This document shows positions 6,052 through 53,597 of a DNA stretch of 64,000 nucleotides, one piece after another. Origin of the DNA: an uncultured virus (IMG/VR IMGVR_UViG_3300027816_000062) (Duplodnaviria; Heunggongvirae; Uroviricota; Caudoviricetes); the IMG/VR virus record IMGVR_UViG_3300027816_000062. One strand, written 5' to 3'. The translations under genes were made by a program, and so were the position numbers. Within the stretch, counting starts at the first letter, position 1; every line of letters begins with the position of its first letter. The notes under the pieces are model-generated. The model saw only the letters and a list, made by a program, of their open reading frames with translations, ran no database searches and had not been told where the DNA came from.

Positions 6052-6092
6052 AAAATCCCCCATATTCATAATCCCAATCGGATATATAAAGC

Positions 6093-48003: not shown

Positions 48004-48046
48004 TAAAATTCCCCTTTGTTTTTGAATCCAATCGGATATATAAGAA

Positions 48047-51177: not shown

Positions 51178-51297
51178 GTGACTGGGAACAAGAAAGGGGG
51201 AAGTAACTCCCTCTTTCTTTATGACTTTCCGTGATTATGCGCCACGATCATTAAAAATCCCCTATATCTTATATTCCAATCGGATATATAAGATATA

Positions 51298-51468
51298 ATG
51301 AAAACCAAACATGTTTTTCGAGTTTACCCCAAGAATGCAACATCTTCCGAGGATGCTTTGGTAATTGAGAAAACCATAAGCCCGAAATCTGTCCTTCGAG
51401 TAATGGGAAACCTTCTTGGCAAGTATAATGCTTCAGAAGTGGCTTTATTGAAATCCGAGGACAAATAA
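51298..51468 (+). CDS. small hypothetical protein (56 aa, below ORF-track cutoff)
   Basis: ATG behind promoter motif; open to TAA 51468. Confidence 0.55.
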   Translation: MKTKHVFRVYPKNATSSEDALVIEKTISPKSVLRVMGNLLGKYNASEVALLKSEDK

Positions 51469-51545
51469 GACTTTTTTAACAAAAAGTCCCAAAATCATAG
51501 GACGATTTTGTTTTTTGATCGTATAATAGATAAGGACACTTTATT

Positions 51546-51638
51546 ATGAAGACCCACACCACATCAAATACGAATATGGTCTTCACCCGACGCAATTCCG
51601 CGACGGGCGTCCAACAACGCTGTCGGCGTTCCGCTTAA
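51546..51638 (+). CDS. putative Gln/Arg/Cys-sensing leader peptide MKTHTTSNTNMVFTRRNSATGVQQRCRRSA
   Basis: AAGGA SD; codon run CAA CAA CGC TGT CGG CGT; precedes tRNA-Gln x2, Arg x2, Cys. Confidence 0.7.
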   Translation: MKTHTTSNTNMVFTRRNSATGVQQRCRRSA

Positions 51639-51727
51639 GTCGGGCTGACACGTTACCACCTGCAAGTAACTTCTTTTTCGAAGAATTAGCCCGCTCTCTG
51701 AGCGAGACGTCGATTATCATCTCGTGC

Positions 51728-51801
51728 TCGGGGATCGTCTAGAGGCAGGACTCTGGTCTCTGGAACCAGAAGCGGTGGTTCGAATCCATCTCTCCGAGCC
51801 A
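51728..51801 (+). tRNA. tRNA-Gln(CUG)
   Basis: cloverleaf, CTGGT-CTCTGGA-ACCAG, GCCA. Confidence 0.9.
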
Positions 51802-51808
51802 GCTTCAC

Positions 51809-51894
51809 TGGGTCTTAGGCGAATTGGTAGAGCCGCCTGTCTTTGGAACAGGACTCCTGAAAAGGTGGAGGTTCGAATCCTCCCGACCCAGCCA
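51809..51894 (+). tRNA. tRNA-Gln(UUG) with extended variable arm
   Basis: CCTGT-CTTTGGA-ACAGG, CCT-GAAA-AGG extra arm, GCCA. Confidence 0.85.
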
Positions 51895-51966
51895 ATTAAA
51901 GGCTTTATGCATTTTGAAAAAATAATTAAAAAAGGCTTTCTTAACAGAAGTACATAATTAAAACGA

Positions 51967-52752
51967 GTGATTCAAACTTCCAATAAGAAAACAAGAGTAA
52001 AGCGCAGTCGAATTTGGACGATGCCTAAAGACGAGTTCGCTCAACTAGTGGCCTCAAGTCAAACTTATGTCGAAATTCTCCGAGCCATTAACTACACCAT
52101 ACGAGGAGGAGCTTTTCGAATTTTAAAAGAACGAATTGCGACAGAAATGATCGACGATTCACATATATTAAAGAATGGAAGGCAAACCATTTATGCCCAT
52201 AGATTCAATACTCGGTCAGATGACGATATATTTTGCGAAAATTCTACATACAATAGTGGCCCTGCCCTGAAAAAGAGAATGATTAAGCTAGGCTTACCTG
52301 AAGAATGCACAAAATGTGGGCTTGGTGCAACATGGAATGATGAACCTCTATCTCTGCAAGTAGACCATATCAATGGGGTGCGCAACGATAACAGATTAGA
52401 GAATTTGAGGCTTCTGTGCCCAAATTGTCATTCTCAAACCGAAAATTTTGCTGGCAGAAAGTTGAACGCAAAAAACAAATCATGTCCAGAATGCTGCGCT
52501 AAGATCAGTGGATACCGTAAAGATCAGAGATGCCAATCTTGTGCCAATAAGATCAGGTCTAGAGAAATGCAACTAATATCAAAACCATCAAAAGACGAGC
52601 TTCAAGATATGTTGTGGAAAATGCCCGCGACTAGGATTGCTAAGATATACAATGTGTCCGATAAAACAGTTGGTAATTGGGCTAAATCCTACAAAATTGA
52701 CAAACCGAGCCGTGGACACTGGGTCAAAAAAAATACTCCCCCCCCCTTGTAG
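51967..52752 (+). CDS. HNH endonuclease with C-terminal zinc ribbon and HTH
   Basis: LQVDHING.RNDNRLENLRLLCPNCHSQT; CPEC..CQSC; IAK.Y.VSDKTV..W. Confidence 0.9.
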   Translation: MIQTSNKKTRVKRSRIWTMPKDEFAQLVASSQTYVEILRAINYTIRGGAFRILKERIATEMIDDSHILKNGRQTIYAHRFNTRSDDDIFCENSTYNSGPALKKRMIKLGLPEECTKCGLGATWNDEPLSLQVDHINGVRNDNRLENLRLLCPNCHSQTENFAGRKLNAKNKSCPECCAKISGYRKDQRCQSCANKIRSREMQLISKPSKDELQDMLWKMPATRIAKIYNVSDKTVGNWAKSYKIDKPSRGHWVKKNTPPPL

Positions 52753-52818
52753 CTTAATGGATAGAGCGCAGCACTTCGGATGCTGATGTTATGGGTTCGA
52801 GTCCTATCGAGGGGGCCA
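52743..52818 (+). tRNA. tRNA-Arg(UCG)
   Basis: cloverleaf, CAGCA-CTTCGGA-TGCTG, GCCA. Confidence 0.9.
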
Positions 52819-52829
52819 AAATTTAAAAC

Positions 52830-52905
52830 ACGCCTGTAGCTCAGTGGATAGAGCATCAGCTTGCGGAGCTGAGGGTCGGAGGTTCGAACCCTCTCAGGCG
52901 TGCCA
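52830..52905 (+). tRNA. tRNA-Arg(GCG)
   Basis: cloverleaf, TCAGC-TTGCGGA-GCTGA, GCCA. Confidence 0.9.
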
Positions 52906-52911
52906 ATATAC

Positions 52912-52986
52912 GGCCACGTACCCAAATGGTTAAGGGCTCCCTCTGCAAAAGGGATGTTGCGAGTTCGATTCTCGCCGTGGCCTCCA
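52912..52986 (+). tRNA. tRNA-Cys(GCA)
   Basis: cloverleaf, TCCCT-CTGCAAA-AGGGA, TCCA. Confidence 0.93.
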
Positions 52987-53030
52987 AAAATCCCCTATAT
53001 TTTTGTCACAATCGGATATATAGTTAGAGA

Positions 53031-53597
53031 ATGACCCAGATTCAAATCGAAGCCGCGAAGCAAATGAAAAAGGCCTGCTATCGGAGTCGCGGGACCTTAA
53101 TCAAAGCAATTCTGGCTTATGTCGAATACCTGATGCGATGTTCGGATTGCCCGCGCAATTGGCCCAAGCACAATCAAGTGAACGTTTCTGCCGAAACTCT
53201 AAAGTCTCTTGCGTGGCTTTACGGCAATTATCATACTGCGGTTTTAGGACAGAAGTTAAACAACCTTCAGTTTTGGATTGAAGAAAGTGGTCGTCAAATC
53301 CCGAGCGAATCTATCGAAGACTATCATGTAAACTCTCTTGACAATAGGATGCTTACCCGAAGAGAGATTTGGGCTGGTGAGATTTTGAGTCACTTGGTTT
53401 TTGCGATTGTCTTTCCCGAAGAAATGGCTCAGACGGGGCTGACTGCTGATGGAATGAATCAAAGATTCGCGGAACTTGATTATGATTTTAACTTGGTGCT
53501 TGAAGATGCTTCAGAAGGCTACGGGACGATTTGCGCATGGATGTCTAAATCAACATCGGTTGAAGTCTTGCGAGACATCTGGCACTTAAACAAGTAA
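53031..53597 (+). CDS. hypothetical protein
   Basis: promoter motif upstream, terminator downstream. Confidence 0.7.
   Translation: MTQIQIEAAKQMKKACYRSRGTLIKAILAYVEYLMRCSDCPRNWPKHNQVNVSAETLKSLAWLYGNYHTAVLGQKLNNLQFWIEESGRQIPSESIEDYHVNSLDNRMLTRREIWAGEILSHLVFAIVFPEEMAQTGLTADGMNQRFAELDYDFNLVLEDASEGYGTICAWMSKSTSVEVLRDIWHLNK

What the first reader, a model, noticed from the sequence alone, without database searches (positions are those of the whole stretch)
51546..52986. QQRCRR leader peptide before the Gln-Gln-Arg-Arg-Cys tRNA cluster
The leader ends CAA CAA CGC TGT CGG CGT and also has CGA CGC, so it contains all four CGN codons. The next five tRNAs are Gln(CUG), Gln(UUG), Arg(UCG), Arg(GCG) and Cys(GCA). 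A stem CGGGCTGA/TTAGCCCG (51641-51694) follows the stop. I see no clear hairpin plus U-tract terminator, so the output switch may be degenerate, Rho-dependent or act on tRNA processing.
Basis: partly seen in the sequence, partly recalled or inferred. Interest (0 to 1): 0.78.

Follow-up and report, generated by a model that had tools for sequence, protein, structure and literature searches.

The report
Codon-matched leader before phage tRNA genes
A giant freshwater phage places a tiny reading frame, written in the codons that its next five tRNA genes decode, inside a tightly folded RNA leader, which looks like a gauge matching phage tRNA supply to demand.

Summary
At 51546-51638 a 30-codon frame ends QQRCRRSA. 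The next genes on that strand are tRNA-Gln(CUG), Gln(UUG), an HNH endonuclease ORF, Arg(UCG), Arg(GCG) and Cys(GCA). The run of six cognate codons is the only run that long in all six frames of the window. Only 0.13-0.17% of shuffles or random sites reach it. The window belongs to a ~379-kb freshwater jumbo phage. No relative keeps this region, so conservation could not be tested. I found the same design elsewhere. This phage's tRNA-His is preceded by a His-rich frame. Huge phage LR745208.1 has eight short frames before tRNA clusters, and their codons fit their own clusters better than any of the 40,319 other pairings. Cultured phage Tunturi_5 has a 15-residue L/C/S/Y run plus a terminator before a Leu/Cys/Tyr/Ser cluster. 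The leader here folds strongly (z -4.1) and has no hairpin-plus-U terminator. It appears alone as a ~150-nt contig in two RNA-type libraries. Best reading (0.6): a translated, codon-matched gauge of decoding capacity that sets tRNA output through hairpin 51622-51714. Translation, stalling and the output step are inferred. My searches found no paper describing tRNA genes controlled this way.

The parts
51517..51527 (+). Promoter-like -10 word GATCGTATAAT, a variant of the phage's repeated GATCGGATATAT word. The predicted start is near 51533-51535, 11-13 nt before the ATG.
   Evidence: Read from the sequence and compared with gene starts. The sigma-70 scan did not list it because it has no good -35. 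Promoter activity is inferred.
51546..51638 (+). Leader ORF, 30 codons plus TAA: MKTHTTSNTNMVFTRRNSATGVQQRCRRSA.
   Evidence: No SD-like word except AAGGA 9 nt upstream. Second codon is AAG.
51576..51578 (+). In-frame internal AUG, a possible alternative start giving a 20-codon frame that keeps all eight cognate codons.
   Evidence: Sequence. The RNA contigs begin at 51558/51562, downstream of the first AUG.
51588..51593 (+). CGA CGC, two Arg codons cognate to tRNA-Arg(UCG) and Arg(GCG).
51612..51629 (+). Run of six cognate codons CAA CAA CGC TGT CGG CGT (QQRCRR).
51547..51585 (+). Hairpin H1: 8-bp stem (51547-51554 with 51578-51585) and a 23-nt A/C-rich loop. It holds the first AUG.
   Evidence: -8.9 kcal/mol alone.
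51586..51607 (+). Small hairpin H2.
51622..51714 (+). Long hairpin H3 (-37.2 kcal/mol). Lower stem: 51622-51639 with 51696-51714. Upper stem: 51641-51648 with 51686-51693. Two apical hairpins at 51652-51670 and 51671-51685. Its 5' strand carries TGT CGG CGT TCC GCT TAA.
   Evidence: The region folds with z -4.08 on the + strand and -1.95 on the - strand.
51558..51709 (+). Stretch recovered as a lone 152-nt contig from a freshwater metatranscriptome. A second library gives 51562-51705. The strand is taken from the gene context, not from the contigs.
   Evidence: records 7 and 11, 0 differences, depth 5.8 and 5.7. The rest of 51200-53100 is uncovered in run X19 except for mismatched tRNA look-alikes.
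51692..51737 (+). Alternative hairpin (-18.6 kcal/mol). It pairs the 3' strand of H3 with the last leader bases and the first 10 nt of tRNA-Gln.
   Evidence: Predicted only when the 5' strand of H3 is blocked.
51728..51801 (+). tRNA-Gln(CUG), CCA encoded.
51809..51894 (+). tRNA-Gln(UUG), 86 nt with a long variable arm, CCA encoded.
51967..52752 (+). HNH endonuclease ORF inside the tRNA cluster (GTG start at 51967, first ATG at 52021). Its end overlaps tRNA-Arg by 10 nt.
52743..52818 (+). tRNA-Arg(UCG).
52830..52905 (+). tRNA-Arg(GCG).
52912..52986 (+). tRNA-Cys(GCA).
52990..53021 (+). Next copy of the phage promoter motif (ATCCCCTATAT..AATCGGATATAT), which marks the start of the following gene unit (ATG 53031).

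Best explanation
The short frame at 51546-51638 (or its 20-codon version from AUG 51576) is a translated, codon-matched leader of one transcription unit: leader, tRNA-Gln, Gln, HNH ORF, Arg, Arg, Cys. How fast a ribosome crosses CGA CGC ... CAA CAA CGC TGT CGG CGT reports the supply of the very decoders that the unit encodes. The last three of those codons and the stop codon lie in the 5' strand of the strong hairpin H3 (51622-51714). A ribosome held there keeps H3 open, and a ribosome that finishes and leaves lets H3 close. H3 then decides the fate of the transcript, either as a block or pause to RNA polymerase or as a processing and decay determinant. The result would be more mature tRNA when decoding is slow. 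Shown: the frame, the non-random codon match, the strong + strand fold, the geometry of codons against hairpin, the absence of a canonical terminator, and a discrete leader-sized RNA in nature. Inferred: translation of the frame, stalling, the direction of control, and what H3 does.
For: (1) Codon match beyond chance: this is the only run of >=6 in six frames of 64 kb, with p 0.0017 against random sites and 26 of 20000 local shuffles. Of 11 tRNA clusters of this phage, its own cluster is the leader's best match. (2) The same phage has a second case: before tRNA-His sits MSDDHHHSTKLHM.., 4 His of 12 codons, binomial p 0.0003, own cluster the best of 11. (3) Huge phage LR745208.1 carries frames matched to the clusters that follow: MNSYTTSERERESDSERT (Glu-Asp-Glu)..GRDGG..RGCGRVQRRRRIR.. 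(Arg x3, Gly x2), MRFFTTTRTRT.. (Thr x3), MNLSTHSTNTAPAATAAC..PAAPPAA (Pro-Ala), MNQHLHHHCY (Tyr-Cys-His)..LKLELLLS.. (Leu x5). A frame-blind test gave p <= 0.016 for 4 of 12 clusters. The true pairing of 8 leaders with 8 clusters scores best of all 40320 permutations. RIIA of the window finds no match in this phage, so I take the two phages not to be close kin. (4) Cultured phage Tunturi_5 has MKT-LCLSSYCLSSSLSLS.. before Leu-Cys-Leu-Leu-Tyr-Leu-Ser-Ser-Ser. It is the longest L/C/S/Y run in six frames of 40 kb, with 3e-5 such runs expected, and a canonical terminator follows 8 nt before the first tRNA. (5) The design is shared. The -10 word sits 9-21 nt before the ATG. There is no SD. The start region is A/C-rich. 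The second codon is AAN in 7 of 11 leaders against 10-25% of long ORFs. Folds are strong, with z from -2.1 to -3.8 in 6 of 11. Cognate codons overlap the 5' strand of a hairpin. (6) The leader accumulates as RNA: lone contigs at 51558-51709 and 51562-51705, with zero depth on the flanking phage genes in run X19. The fold signal is stronger on the + strand.
Against: No relative keeps this region, so neither the frame nor the hairpin could be tested for conservation. The peptide has 0 hits among 1.84 billion representative proteins. The first AUG lies in an 8-bp stem and has at best a weak SD. The RNA contigs start after it. No hairpin-plus-U terminator exists, so the output step is a guess. Blocking the 5' strand of H3 in silico favours a fold that traps the 5' end of tRNA-Gln, which would give the opposite polarity. 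tRNA-Gln(CUG) has no CAG codon in the frame. By simple count the enrichment is modest (23 of 685 small ORFs). The design is not general. It is absent from 10 of 12 clusters of this phage, from 10 clusters of smaller phages (loci L031-L040; the 11th cluster scored, L010, is the LR745208.1 Arg/Gly cluster itself; minimum p of the 11 is 0.11), and from 3 clusters of Atu_ph07. Among 97 ORFs before 49 clusters in metagenomic kin, only one reached p < 0.01. The finding was chosen post hoc by a reader scanning many windows. Contigs give neither strand nor true ends, and run X20 is flagged as possibly DNA.
Confidence: 0.6

Rival explanations
1. The interval is simply a stable, highly structured 5' leader or small RNA made together with the tRNAs, like the small stable RNAs of the T4 tRNA cluster. 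RNase P would release it and its fold would protect it. The reading frame and its codon run are a coincidence.
For: Strong fold (z -4.08). Lone ~150-nt contigs in two RNA-type libraries that do not include the first AUG. No peptide relatives. No terminator. The first AUG is buried in a stem. T4 makes eight tRNAs and RNA species I and II from one primary transcript (PMC2330249, passages read).
Against: It leaves the codon run unexplained (26 of 20000 local shuffles). It also does not explain the His frame in the same phage or the matched frames in LR745208.1 and Tunturi_5. A stable leader and a sensing leader are not exclusive, because attenuated leaders also accumulate.
Confidence: 0.22
2. The frame is an ordinary small phage protein gene that happens to lie upstream of tRNAs, as several other small genes in this phage do. 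It has no regulatory link to them.
For: Other tRNAs of this phage sit directly behind small protein genes (64-aa, 32-aa and 71-aa ORFs). The phage is full of short ORFs.
Against: It lacks the phage's standard promoter-to-ATG spacing. It has no homologue. Most of the frame is embedded in RNA structure. This reading does not predict a match to the downstream anticodons.
Confidence: 0.07
3. It is a classical trp/his-type attenuator, in which an intrinsic terminator forms unless a stalled ribosome allows an antiterminator.
For: The Tunturi_5 parallel does have a canonical terminator 8 nt before its first tRNA. Earlier notes of this scan report switchable terminators in other phage cases (unchecked).
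Against: The scan found no hairpin-plus-T-run between the frame and tRNA-Gln. H3 is followed by UAUCAUCUC. The only U-run (51671-51679) follows a 5-bp AU-rich stem, and the RNA contigs run past it to 51705-51709. The three LR745208.1 leader regions scanned also lack such terminators between frame and tRNA.
Confidence: 0.05
4. The leader senses tRNAs directly by RNA-RNA contact, T-box-like, with codon-like triplets pairing with anticodons and no translation.
For: The triplets complementary to the anticodons are present, and the leader is structured.
Against: No T-box or any other Rfam family matches, even at E <= 10 on the 241-nt interval. The triplets are in one frame behind an ATG and before a stop, here and in the parallels. 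Six adjacent specifier triplets have no precedent that I can recall.
Confidence: 0.02

Closest known systems
Leader-peptide transcription attenuators of amino-acid operons (trpL, hisL, leuL, thrL, ilvL, pheL); names recalled, pheL abstract seen in the listing (PMC3082878)
   Same: A short upstream frame with a run of regulatory codons. Ribosome speed on those codons would be the signal. The codons sit next to or inside an RNA hairpin. A multi-amino-acid leader resembles thr/ilv (recalled).
   Different: The controlled genes are tRNA genes, not biosynthetic enzymes, and they lie in a phage. There is no hairpin-plus-U terminator and no clear antiterminator pair. The signal would be decoder supply rather than amino-acid supply.
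pheM-pheST attenuator of gamma-proteobacteria (recalled)
   Same: A leader peptide that reports charged-tRNA level and controls a component of the translation apparatus for the same amino acid.
   Different: Its target is a synthetase, it has a classical terminator, and it serves one amino acid.
tnaC / Rho-dependent and erm/cat-type ribosome-stalling leaders (recalled)
   Same: A stalled ribosome acts by occupying RNA, masking a site or melting a hairpin, with no intrinsic terminator. This is the nearest match to how a terminator-less leader could work.
   Different: Those stalls are caused by the nascent peptide plus a small molecule, not by hungry codons. No rut site or downstream ribosome-binding site is evident here.
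Phage T4 tRNA region: eight tRNAs, stable RNA species I and II and the segB homing endonuclease on one ~1.75-kb primary transcript (PMC2330249, passages read)
   Same: A phage tRNA cluster with an embedded homing endonuclease gene and an extra small stable RNA made from the same transcript.
   Different: The T4 small RNAs are not reported there to carry a codon-matched frame. The T4 endonuclease is GIY-YIG and this one is HNH.
T-box leaders (Rfam RF00230)
   Same: A leader RNA that measures the state of a specific tRNA.
   Different: No match to the family. T-boxes read one tRNA by direct pairing and control synthetase or amino-acid genes.

Membership tests
Leader-peptide transcription attenuator (trp/his type) | Short ORF upstream of the regulated genes with a cluster of codons cognate to the regulated function | tested here: met
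   30-codon ORF with 8 cognate codons, six of them consecutive.
Leader-peptide transcription attenuator (trp/his type) | Intrinsic terminator (GC-rich hairpin followed by a U-run) between leader ORF and regulated genes | tested here: not met
   No + strand terminator-like site between 51213 and 53500. H3 is followed by UAUCAUCUC.
Leader-peptide transcription attenuator (trp/his type) | Mutually exclusive antiterminator and terminator pairings set by ribosome position | tested here: inconclusive
   The lower stem of H3 competes with an alternative hairpin at 51692-51737 when its 5' strand is blocked. Neither is a terminator, and the predicted polarity is unclear.
Leader-peptide transcription attenuator (trp/his type) | The leader ORF is translated | not testable with these tools
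   Only indirect signs: ATG, AAG second codon, A/C-rich start region. Against: the AUG lies in stem H1.
Leader-peptide transcription attenuator (trp/his type) | Frame and regulatory codons conserved in relatives | not testable with these tools
   No relative with this region was found. Copies from other samples are identical.
Codon-matched leaders of phage tRNA clusters (provisional class: this report and unchecked notes of this scan) | Short ATG frame directly upstream of a tRNA cluster whose codons fit that cluster better than the phage's other clusters | tested here: met
   Own cluster is the best of 11 for both leaders of this phage. In LR745208.1 the true pairing is the best of 40320.
Codon-matched leaders of phage tRNA clusters (provisional class: this report and unchecked notes of this scan) | Own promoter-like -10 word, short SD-less 5' UTR, strongly folded leader | tested here: met
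   TATAAT lies 18 nt before the ATG, against 9-21 nt in LR745208.1. Fold z is -3.7 to -4.1.
Small stable RNAs of phage tRNA clusters (T4 species I/II type) | Discrete stable RNA encoded within or next to the tRNA cluster and made from the same transcript | tested here: inconclusive
   Lone leader-sized contigs in two RNA-type libraries. Co-transcription, strand and ends are not shown by contigs.
T-box riboswitch | Match to the T-box covariance model (stem I specifier loop, antiterminator bulge) | tested here: not met
   No Rfam hit at E <= 1 on 4 kb or at E <= 10 on 241 nt.

The most novel reading that the evidence does not exclude
Large phages run a feedback circuit that is not in the literature I could search. 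Each tRNA cluster is headed by a mini-frame written in its own codons, so the phage makes tRNAs on demand, for instance when host tRNAs run short or are cut by defence nucleases. In the terminator-less form seen here and in LR745208.1, the stalled ribosome does not act on transcription termination. It acts on maturation of the precursor, by holding open a hairpin that otherwise abuts the 5' end of the first tRNA (0-13 nt away) and limits access of RNase P or another processing enzyme.
Probability: 0.3. Interest if true: 0.92.

Novelty: new variant of a known kind. Interest (0 to 1): 0.82.

Why it matters
Why phages carry tRNAs, and how they time and dose them, is an old open question. A leader frame that reads the very codons served by the tRNAs behind it would mean phages measure decoding capacity codon by codon and adjust supply. 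That logic is known for amino-acid operons and one synthetase, but not for tRNA genes. It gives a direct handle on the idea that phage tRNAs compensate for host tRNA shortage or for host anticodon nucleases. The parallels found here make it testable. LR745208.1 offers eight leaders in one genome for comparison. Tunturi_5 is a cultured jumbo phage with a cultured host (PMC11924767, passages read). The terminator-less form may also reveal a way for translation to control RNA processing.

Tried and rejected
Relatives for a conservation test were sought in several ways, and all failed.
- Megablast and blastn against 50,697 phage records gave only tRNA-sized matches.
- The 188-aa neighbour is an ORFan: 1 hit, itself.
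- The 246-aa neighbour gave two weak partial matches without tRNAs.
- RIIA gave one 38% relative on a record not held.
- Three tRNA-derived patterns in IMG/VR gave 0, 10 unrelated and 0 loci.
- The CCA-adding enzyme found 220 relatives in metagenomes, of which 80 were kept. The closest (73-85%) lie on short contigs or lack the Gln cluster. None holds anything like the leader or its flanking ORFan genes.
- Copies of the same phage in other samples are identical over 51200-51900.

Other searches:
- Rfam gave no family for the leader.
- phmmer of the 30-aa peptide gave 0 hits.
- Aligning this leader with the LR745208.1 Arg/Gly leader gave no meaningful DNA alignment. That leader does not fold better than shuffles, so the two are analogous rather than shown to be homologous.
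- The U-run at 51671-51679 behind a 5-bp stem was considered as a terminator. I rejected it because the stem is weak and the RNA contigs run past it.
- An antisense RNA from a 9/12 promoter-like site at 51741-51713 was considered. It is not excluded, because contigs carry no strand. It is less likely, because the - strand fold signal is weaker (z -1.95 against -4.08) and promoter-like sites are no more frequent than in shuffles.
- Earlier notes of this scan for this genome and its look-alikes held nothing.
- Complex prediction, structure prediction and the protein atlas were not used, because no protein question was open.
Full report
WHAT THE WINDOW IS. The window is part of a jumbo phage. It is 100% identical over 51400-53100 to an IMG/VR record of 378,848 bp, rated complete (handle G001; window position = G001 position + 7695). 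Small ORFs run almost all on one strand. RIIA, RIIB, a CCA-adding enzyme and an HNH endonuclease are recognisable. The window holds 15 tRNA genes and the whole phage 34. The stretch is held in full (all sampled words) by 18 runs, labelled freshwater or fungus metagenomes; the 20 rows that hold any part of it come from 12 studies.

THE OBSERVATION. It is correct. ORF 51546-51638 reads MKTHTTSNTNMVFTRRNSATGVQQRCRRSA. It contains CGA CGC at 51588-51593 and CAA CAA CGC TGT CGG CGT at 51612-51629. By strict wobble, four of the five tRNAs have cognate codons in the frame. Gln(CUG) has none, because both Gln codons are CAA.

IS IT MORE THAN CHANCE? A run of six or more codons from the set CAA, CAG, CGN, TGT, TGC occurs exactly once in all six frames of the 64-kb window, at this place. 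Among 3000 random 250-nt windows of the phage genome, 0.17% reach such a run in any frame. Dinucleotide-preserving shuffles of the CpG-rich leader itself reach it in 26 of 20000. The plain count is less striking. Eight cognate codons of 30 is reached by 23 of 685 small ORFs of the window, with binomial p 0.009.

ANATOMY. Most genes of this phage start about 6 nt after a long conserved motif, AAAAATCCCC..(G/A)ATCGGATATATAA. The core word is found 49 times at up to 2 mismatches, against 7.9 expected. Only 10 of 80 ORF starts have an SD-like word. The leader has a variant of the downstream half, GATCGTATAAT (51517-51527). Here the ATG follows 18 nt after the -10 word, so the predicted 5' UTR is 11-13 nt (inference; the generic promoter scan does not list it). 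The stretch 51530-51727 folds to -62.1 kcal/mol, z -4.08, and 0 of 200 shuffles do as well. The minus strand gives z -1.95. Three elements appear. H1 (51547-51585) encloses the first AUG. H2 is small. The 5' strand of its lower stem is TGT CGG CGT TCC GCT TAA, so the last three regulatory codons and the stop codon sit in the hairpin. No hairpin-plus-T-run site lies between the frame and the tRNAs. When I forbid pairing of the 5' strand of H3, as a ribosome at the last Cys/Arg codons or at the stop codon would, the freed 3' strand is predicted to pair with 51716-51737 (-18.6 kcal/mol). That stretch includes the first 10 nt of tRNA-Gln. With a block placed over the two Gln and first Arg codons, the tRNA cloverleaf is kept. 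This is a prediction on naked RNA and I give it little weight.

EXPRESSION. I laid four runs on 51200-53100. A freshwater metatranscriptome (X19) holds one 152-nt contig equal to 51558-51709, with no difference and depth 5.8, and nothing else of the phage. All bins over the flanking genes, the HNH ORF and the next gene are zero. The only other depth comes from mismatched tRNA-Arg look-alikes of other organisms. A wastewater library labelled RNA-Seq/cDNA, which the tool flags as possibly DNA (X20), holds a 157-nt contig whose positions 8-151 equal 51562-51705, again with no other identical phage piece. Two libraries from different studies therefore recover only this interval, which argues for a discrete, abundant RNA of about 150 nt or more. 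Contigs show neither strand nor true ends. I take the + strand from the gene context and from the stronger + strand fold. The contigs start after the first AUG, but they include the in-frame AUG at 51576, which would give a 20-codon frame with all eight cognate codons.

RELATIVES. Nothing beyond tRNA-sized matches exists in the phage collection. The neighbouring genes are ORFans. tRNA-derived patterns found no related cluster in IMG/VR. The CCA-adding enzyme has 220 relatives in metagenomes (80 loci kept), but the close ones (73-85%) lie on short contigs or lack the Gln cluster. No kept locus has a match to the leader. Copies of the same phage from other samples are identical over 51200-51900.

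PARALLELS. (a) Same phage, outside the window. Applying one frame-blind test to all 12 tRNA clusters of G001, the Gln/Arg/Cys cluster (p 0.0017) and the tRNA-His gene (p 0.015) stand out. Before tRNA-His lies ATG-AGC-GAC-GAT-CAC-CAT-CAC..., reading MSDDHHHSTKLHM.. and running on into the tRNA. It has 4 His in 12 codons, p 0.0003. For both leaders the own cluster is the best fit among 11 clusters. The other ten clusters follow protein genes directly and have no such frame.

(b) LR745208.1, an uncultured 485-kb phage, came up only through tRNA-Arg similarity. The window's RIIA finds no match in it, so I take the two phages not to be close kin. It has 36 tRNAs grouped by amino acid. Eight clusters are preceded by a short ATG frame. 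Seven of these follow a near-consensus promoter. The strict word TTGAC[AT]-N15-19-TA[TGC]A[CA]T occurs four times on the + strand of the genome and never on the other strand, each time before such a frame. The three leader regions I put through the promoter scan each scored 11 of 12. The frames are:
- MNSYTTSERERESDSERT before Glu-Asp-Glu
- MSFSMYTKTTTHGRDGGTLARGCGRVQRRRRIRPTT before Arg-Arg-Arg-Gly-Gly
- MRFFTTTRTRTAGLTRKG before Thr-Thr-Thr
- MNLSTHSTNTAPAATAACVVACVGPAAPPAA before Pro-Ala
- MNQHLHHHCY before Tyr-Cys-His
- MFDRATNSIPSLKLELLLSCAGVDLCTRA before five Leu tRNAs
- two weak cases before Lys-Val-Arg and Ile-Phe-Gln-Gln
. A frame-blind window test gave p <= 0.016 for 4 of 12 clusters. 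Binomial p for the own cluster is below 0.05 for 6 of 8 and not for 2 (0.81 and 0.39). Scoring every leader against every cluster, the true pairing has the highest total of all 40320 permutations. Four of the eight frames were picked by the promoter rule alone. The other four I chose from the ORF lists, which is a possible bias that the frame-blind test does not share.

(c) Tunturi_5 is a cultured 309-kb jumbo phage of Tunturiibacter (PMC11924767, passages read). An unannotated frame, MKTLCLSSYCLSSSLSLSDGWDLRTGRDADMI, precedes Leu-Cys-Leu-Leu-Tyr-Leu-Ser-Ser-Ser. The 15 consecutive L/C/S/Y residues are the longest such run in six frames of the 40-kb locus, where 3e-5 runs of that length are expected. 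A canonical terminator (11 pairs, T-rich tail) ends 8 nt before the first tRNA. I saw no such frame at the other clusters of that locus.

CONTROLS. One search scored 11 clusters. Ten come from smaller unrelated phages and the 11th (L010) is the LR745208.1 Arg/Gly cluster itself. The minimum p of the 11 was 0.11. Three clusters of Atu_ph07 gave nothing convincing. Of 97 ORFs before 49 clusters in the metagenomic kin, one reached p 0.0009 and the rest p > 0.01. The design is therefore real but sporadic.

SHARED DESIGN. Across the 11 leaders:
- The -10 word lies 9-21 nt before the ATG and there is no SD.
- The first codons are A/C-rich, for example ACC CAC ACC ACA here and ACC CAC AGC ACC in the Pro-Ala leader.
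- The second codon is AAN in 7 of 11, against 10% and 25% of long ORFs in the two genomes (p 0.0003 to 0.008).
- Six of 11 fold with z of -2.1 or lower.
- The cognate codons overlap or abut the 5' strand of a hairpin whose 3' strand ends 0-5 nt before the tRNA in LR745208.1 and 13 nt before it here. I cut those sequences at the tRNA start, which may favour such ends.
- No canonical terminator lies between frame and tRNA in this window or in the three LR745208.1 leader regions scanned. Tunturi_5 has one.

HOW IT MOST LIKELY WORKS. The shown parts are the frame, the match, the fold, the geometry and the RNA. From the established logic of leader-peptide control (recalled: trp, his, pheST) I infer three steps. 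Ribosomes translate the frame. They slow on CGA CGC and on QQRCRR when the decoders encoded just downstream, or their host equivalents, are scarce. A ribosome with its A site on TGT, CGG or CGT covers about 51606-51642 and so keeps the lower stem of H3 open. What H3 does when it closes is open, and I see four candidates:
(i) It blocks or pauses RNA polymerase without a U-run, which is weakly supported.
(ii) It is a site for a double-strand or other processing nuclease. The contig ends at 51705-51709 fall inside its 3' strand, but contig ends are soft evidence.
(iii) It shields or exposes the 5' flank of the first tRNA to RNase P. This fits LR745208.1, where the hairpins abut the tRNA, better than this window.
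The first 30 nt of the frame are C-rich and G-poor, but that stretch is short.
I put 0.6 on the statement that this is a translated, codon-matched sensor controlling tRNA output. No single output mechanism gets more than about 0.25.

COMPARISON WITH WHAT IS KNOWN. It works like the leader-peptide attenuators but fails one defining feature of that family, the intrinsic terminator (tested, not met), so I do not file it as a member. The gene layout is closest to the T4 tRNA region, where one primary transcript yields eight tRNAs, two small stable RNAs and a homing endonuclease mRNA (PMC2330249, passages). It is not a T-box.

NOVELTY. Full-text searches found no account of tRNA genes, phage or cellular, preceded by codon-matched leader frames. 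The term sets were: leader peptide + tRNA operon + attenuation; huge phages + tRNA + leader peptide; phage-encoded tRNA + upstream open reading frame; leader peptide + tRNA gene cluster + phage; ribosome stalling + phage tRNA + leader. The main texts of the huge-phage paper (PMC7162821) and of the Tunturi paper (PMC11924767) hold no occurrence of 'leader' or 'attenuat'. That LR745208.1 stems from the former study is my recollection, not a call result. The library lacks most subscription journals. Earlier notes of this scan describe four similar phage cases in other genomes. I read them after finding the parallels above. They are unchecked AI notes and not independent evidence. This case differs from them in three ways: it lacks a terminator, it has expression evidence, and it pointed to an eight-leader set and a cultured model.

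CAVEATS. Translation is not shown. The first AUG is buried in a stem and missing from the RNA contigs. The strand and ends of the RNA are not established. One of the two libraries may be DNA. The in-silico alternative fold suggests a polarity opposite to simple homeostasis. The case was selected post hoc. No orthologue exists to test.

Noticed in passing
whole window, e.g. 51259-51289, 52990-53021, 6076-6087, 48030-48041: A bipartite motif, AAAAATCCCC..N~15..(G/A)ATCGGATATATAA, ends about 6 nt before most + strand ATGs. There are 49 hits of the core word at up to 2 mismatches against 7.9 expected, and copies on the - strand from about 55400 onward where gene direction flips. It looks like the phage's main promoter and would give leaderless or near-leaderless mRNAs. 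Only 10 of 80 ORF starts have an SD-like word.
   Followed up: partly
51809-51894: tRNA-Gln(UUG) is 86 nt, with a class-II-like long variable arm and a 3-bp D stem, yet it has U1-A72 and G73 like its neighbour tRNA-Gln(CUG). A long-arm tRNA with a Gln anticodon is unusual (Rfam tRNA 49.3 bits).
   Followed up: no
51967-52752: An HNH homing-endonuclease ORF splits the tRNA cluster, and its last 10 nt overlap tRNA-Arg(UCG). The leader's Arg and Cys codons match tRNAs on the far side of it, which suggests a later insertion into one unit.
   Followed up: partly
G001 294691-294858 (outside the window): The phage encodes two tRNAs with anticodon CUA, which read TAG, next to two tRNA-Lys genes. Stop-codon recoding of some genes is possible.
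   Followed up: no
G001 324692-324760 (outside the window): The frame MSDDHHHSTKLHMASVAQWQST starts 39 nt before tRNA-His and ends inside it, so a ribosome reading through would enter the tRNA sequence. Two LR745208.1 leaders (Lys-Val-Arg, Ile-Phe-Gln-Gln) also run into their first tRNA.
   Followed up: partly
LR745208.1 7629-7705 and 142332-142406 (loci L041, L048): ARAGORN calls a tRNA with anticodon UUA (reads TAA) and one with a four-base anticodon (ttta) in this huge phage.
   Followed up: no
L122 16607-16750 (metagenome contig of 226 kb): A 47-aa frame, MKAKDRVSKPRNPLHDHPLMRKGG.., lies before a block of 14 tRNAs. 31 of its 46 codons are cognate against a background of 0.435, p 0.0009, the lowest of the 97 ORFs tested. 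It may be a many-amino-acid leader.
   Followed up: no
51542-51578: A second -10-like word, TATTAT (51542-51547), lies 10-15 nt before the 5' ends of the RNA contigs (51558/51562). An in-frame AUG follows at 51576. The leader may therefore start later than the first ATG suggests.
   Followed up: no
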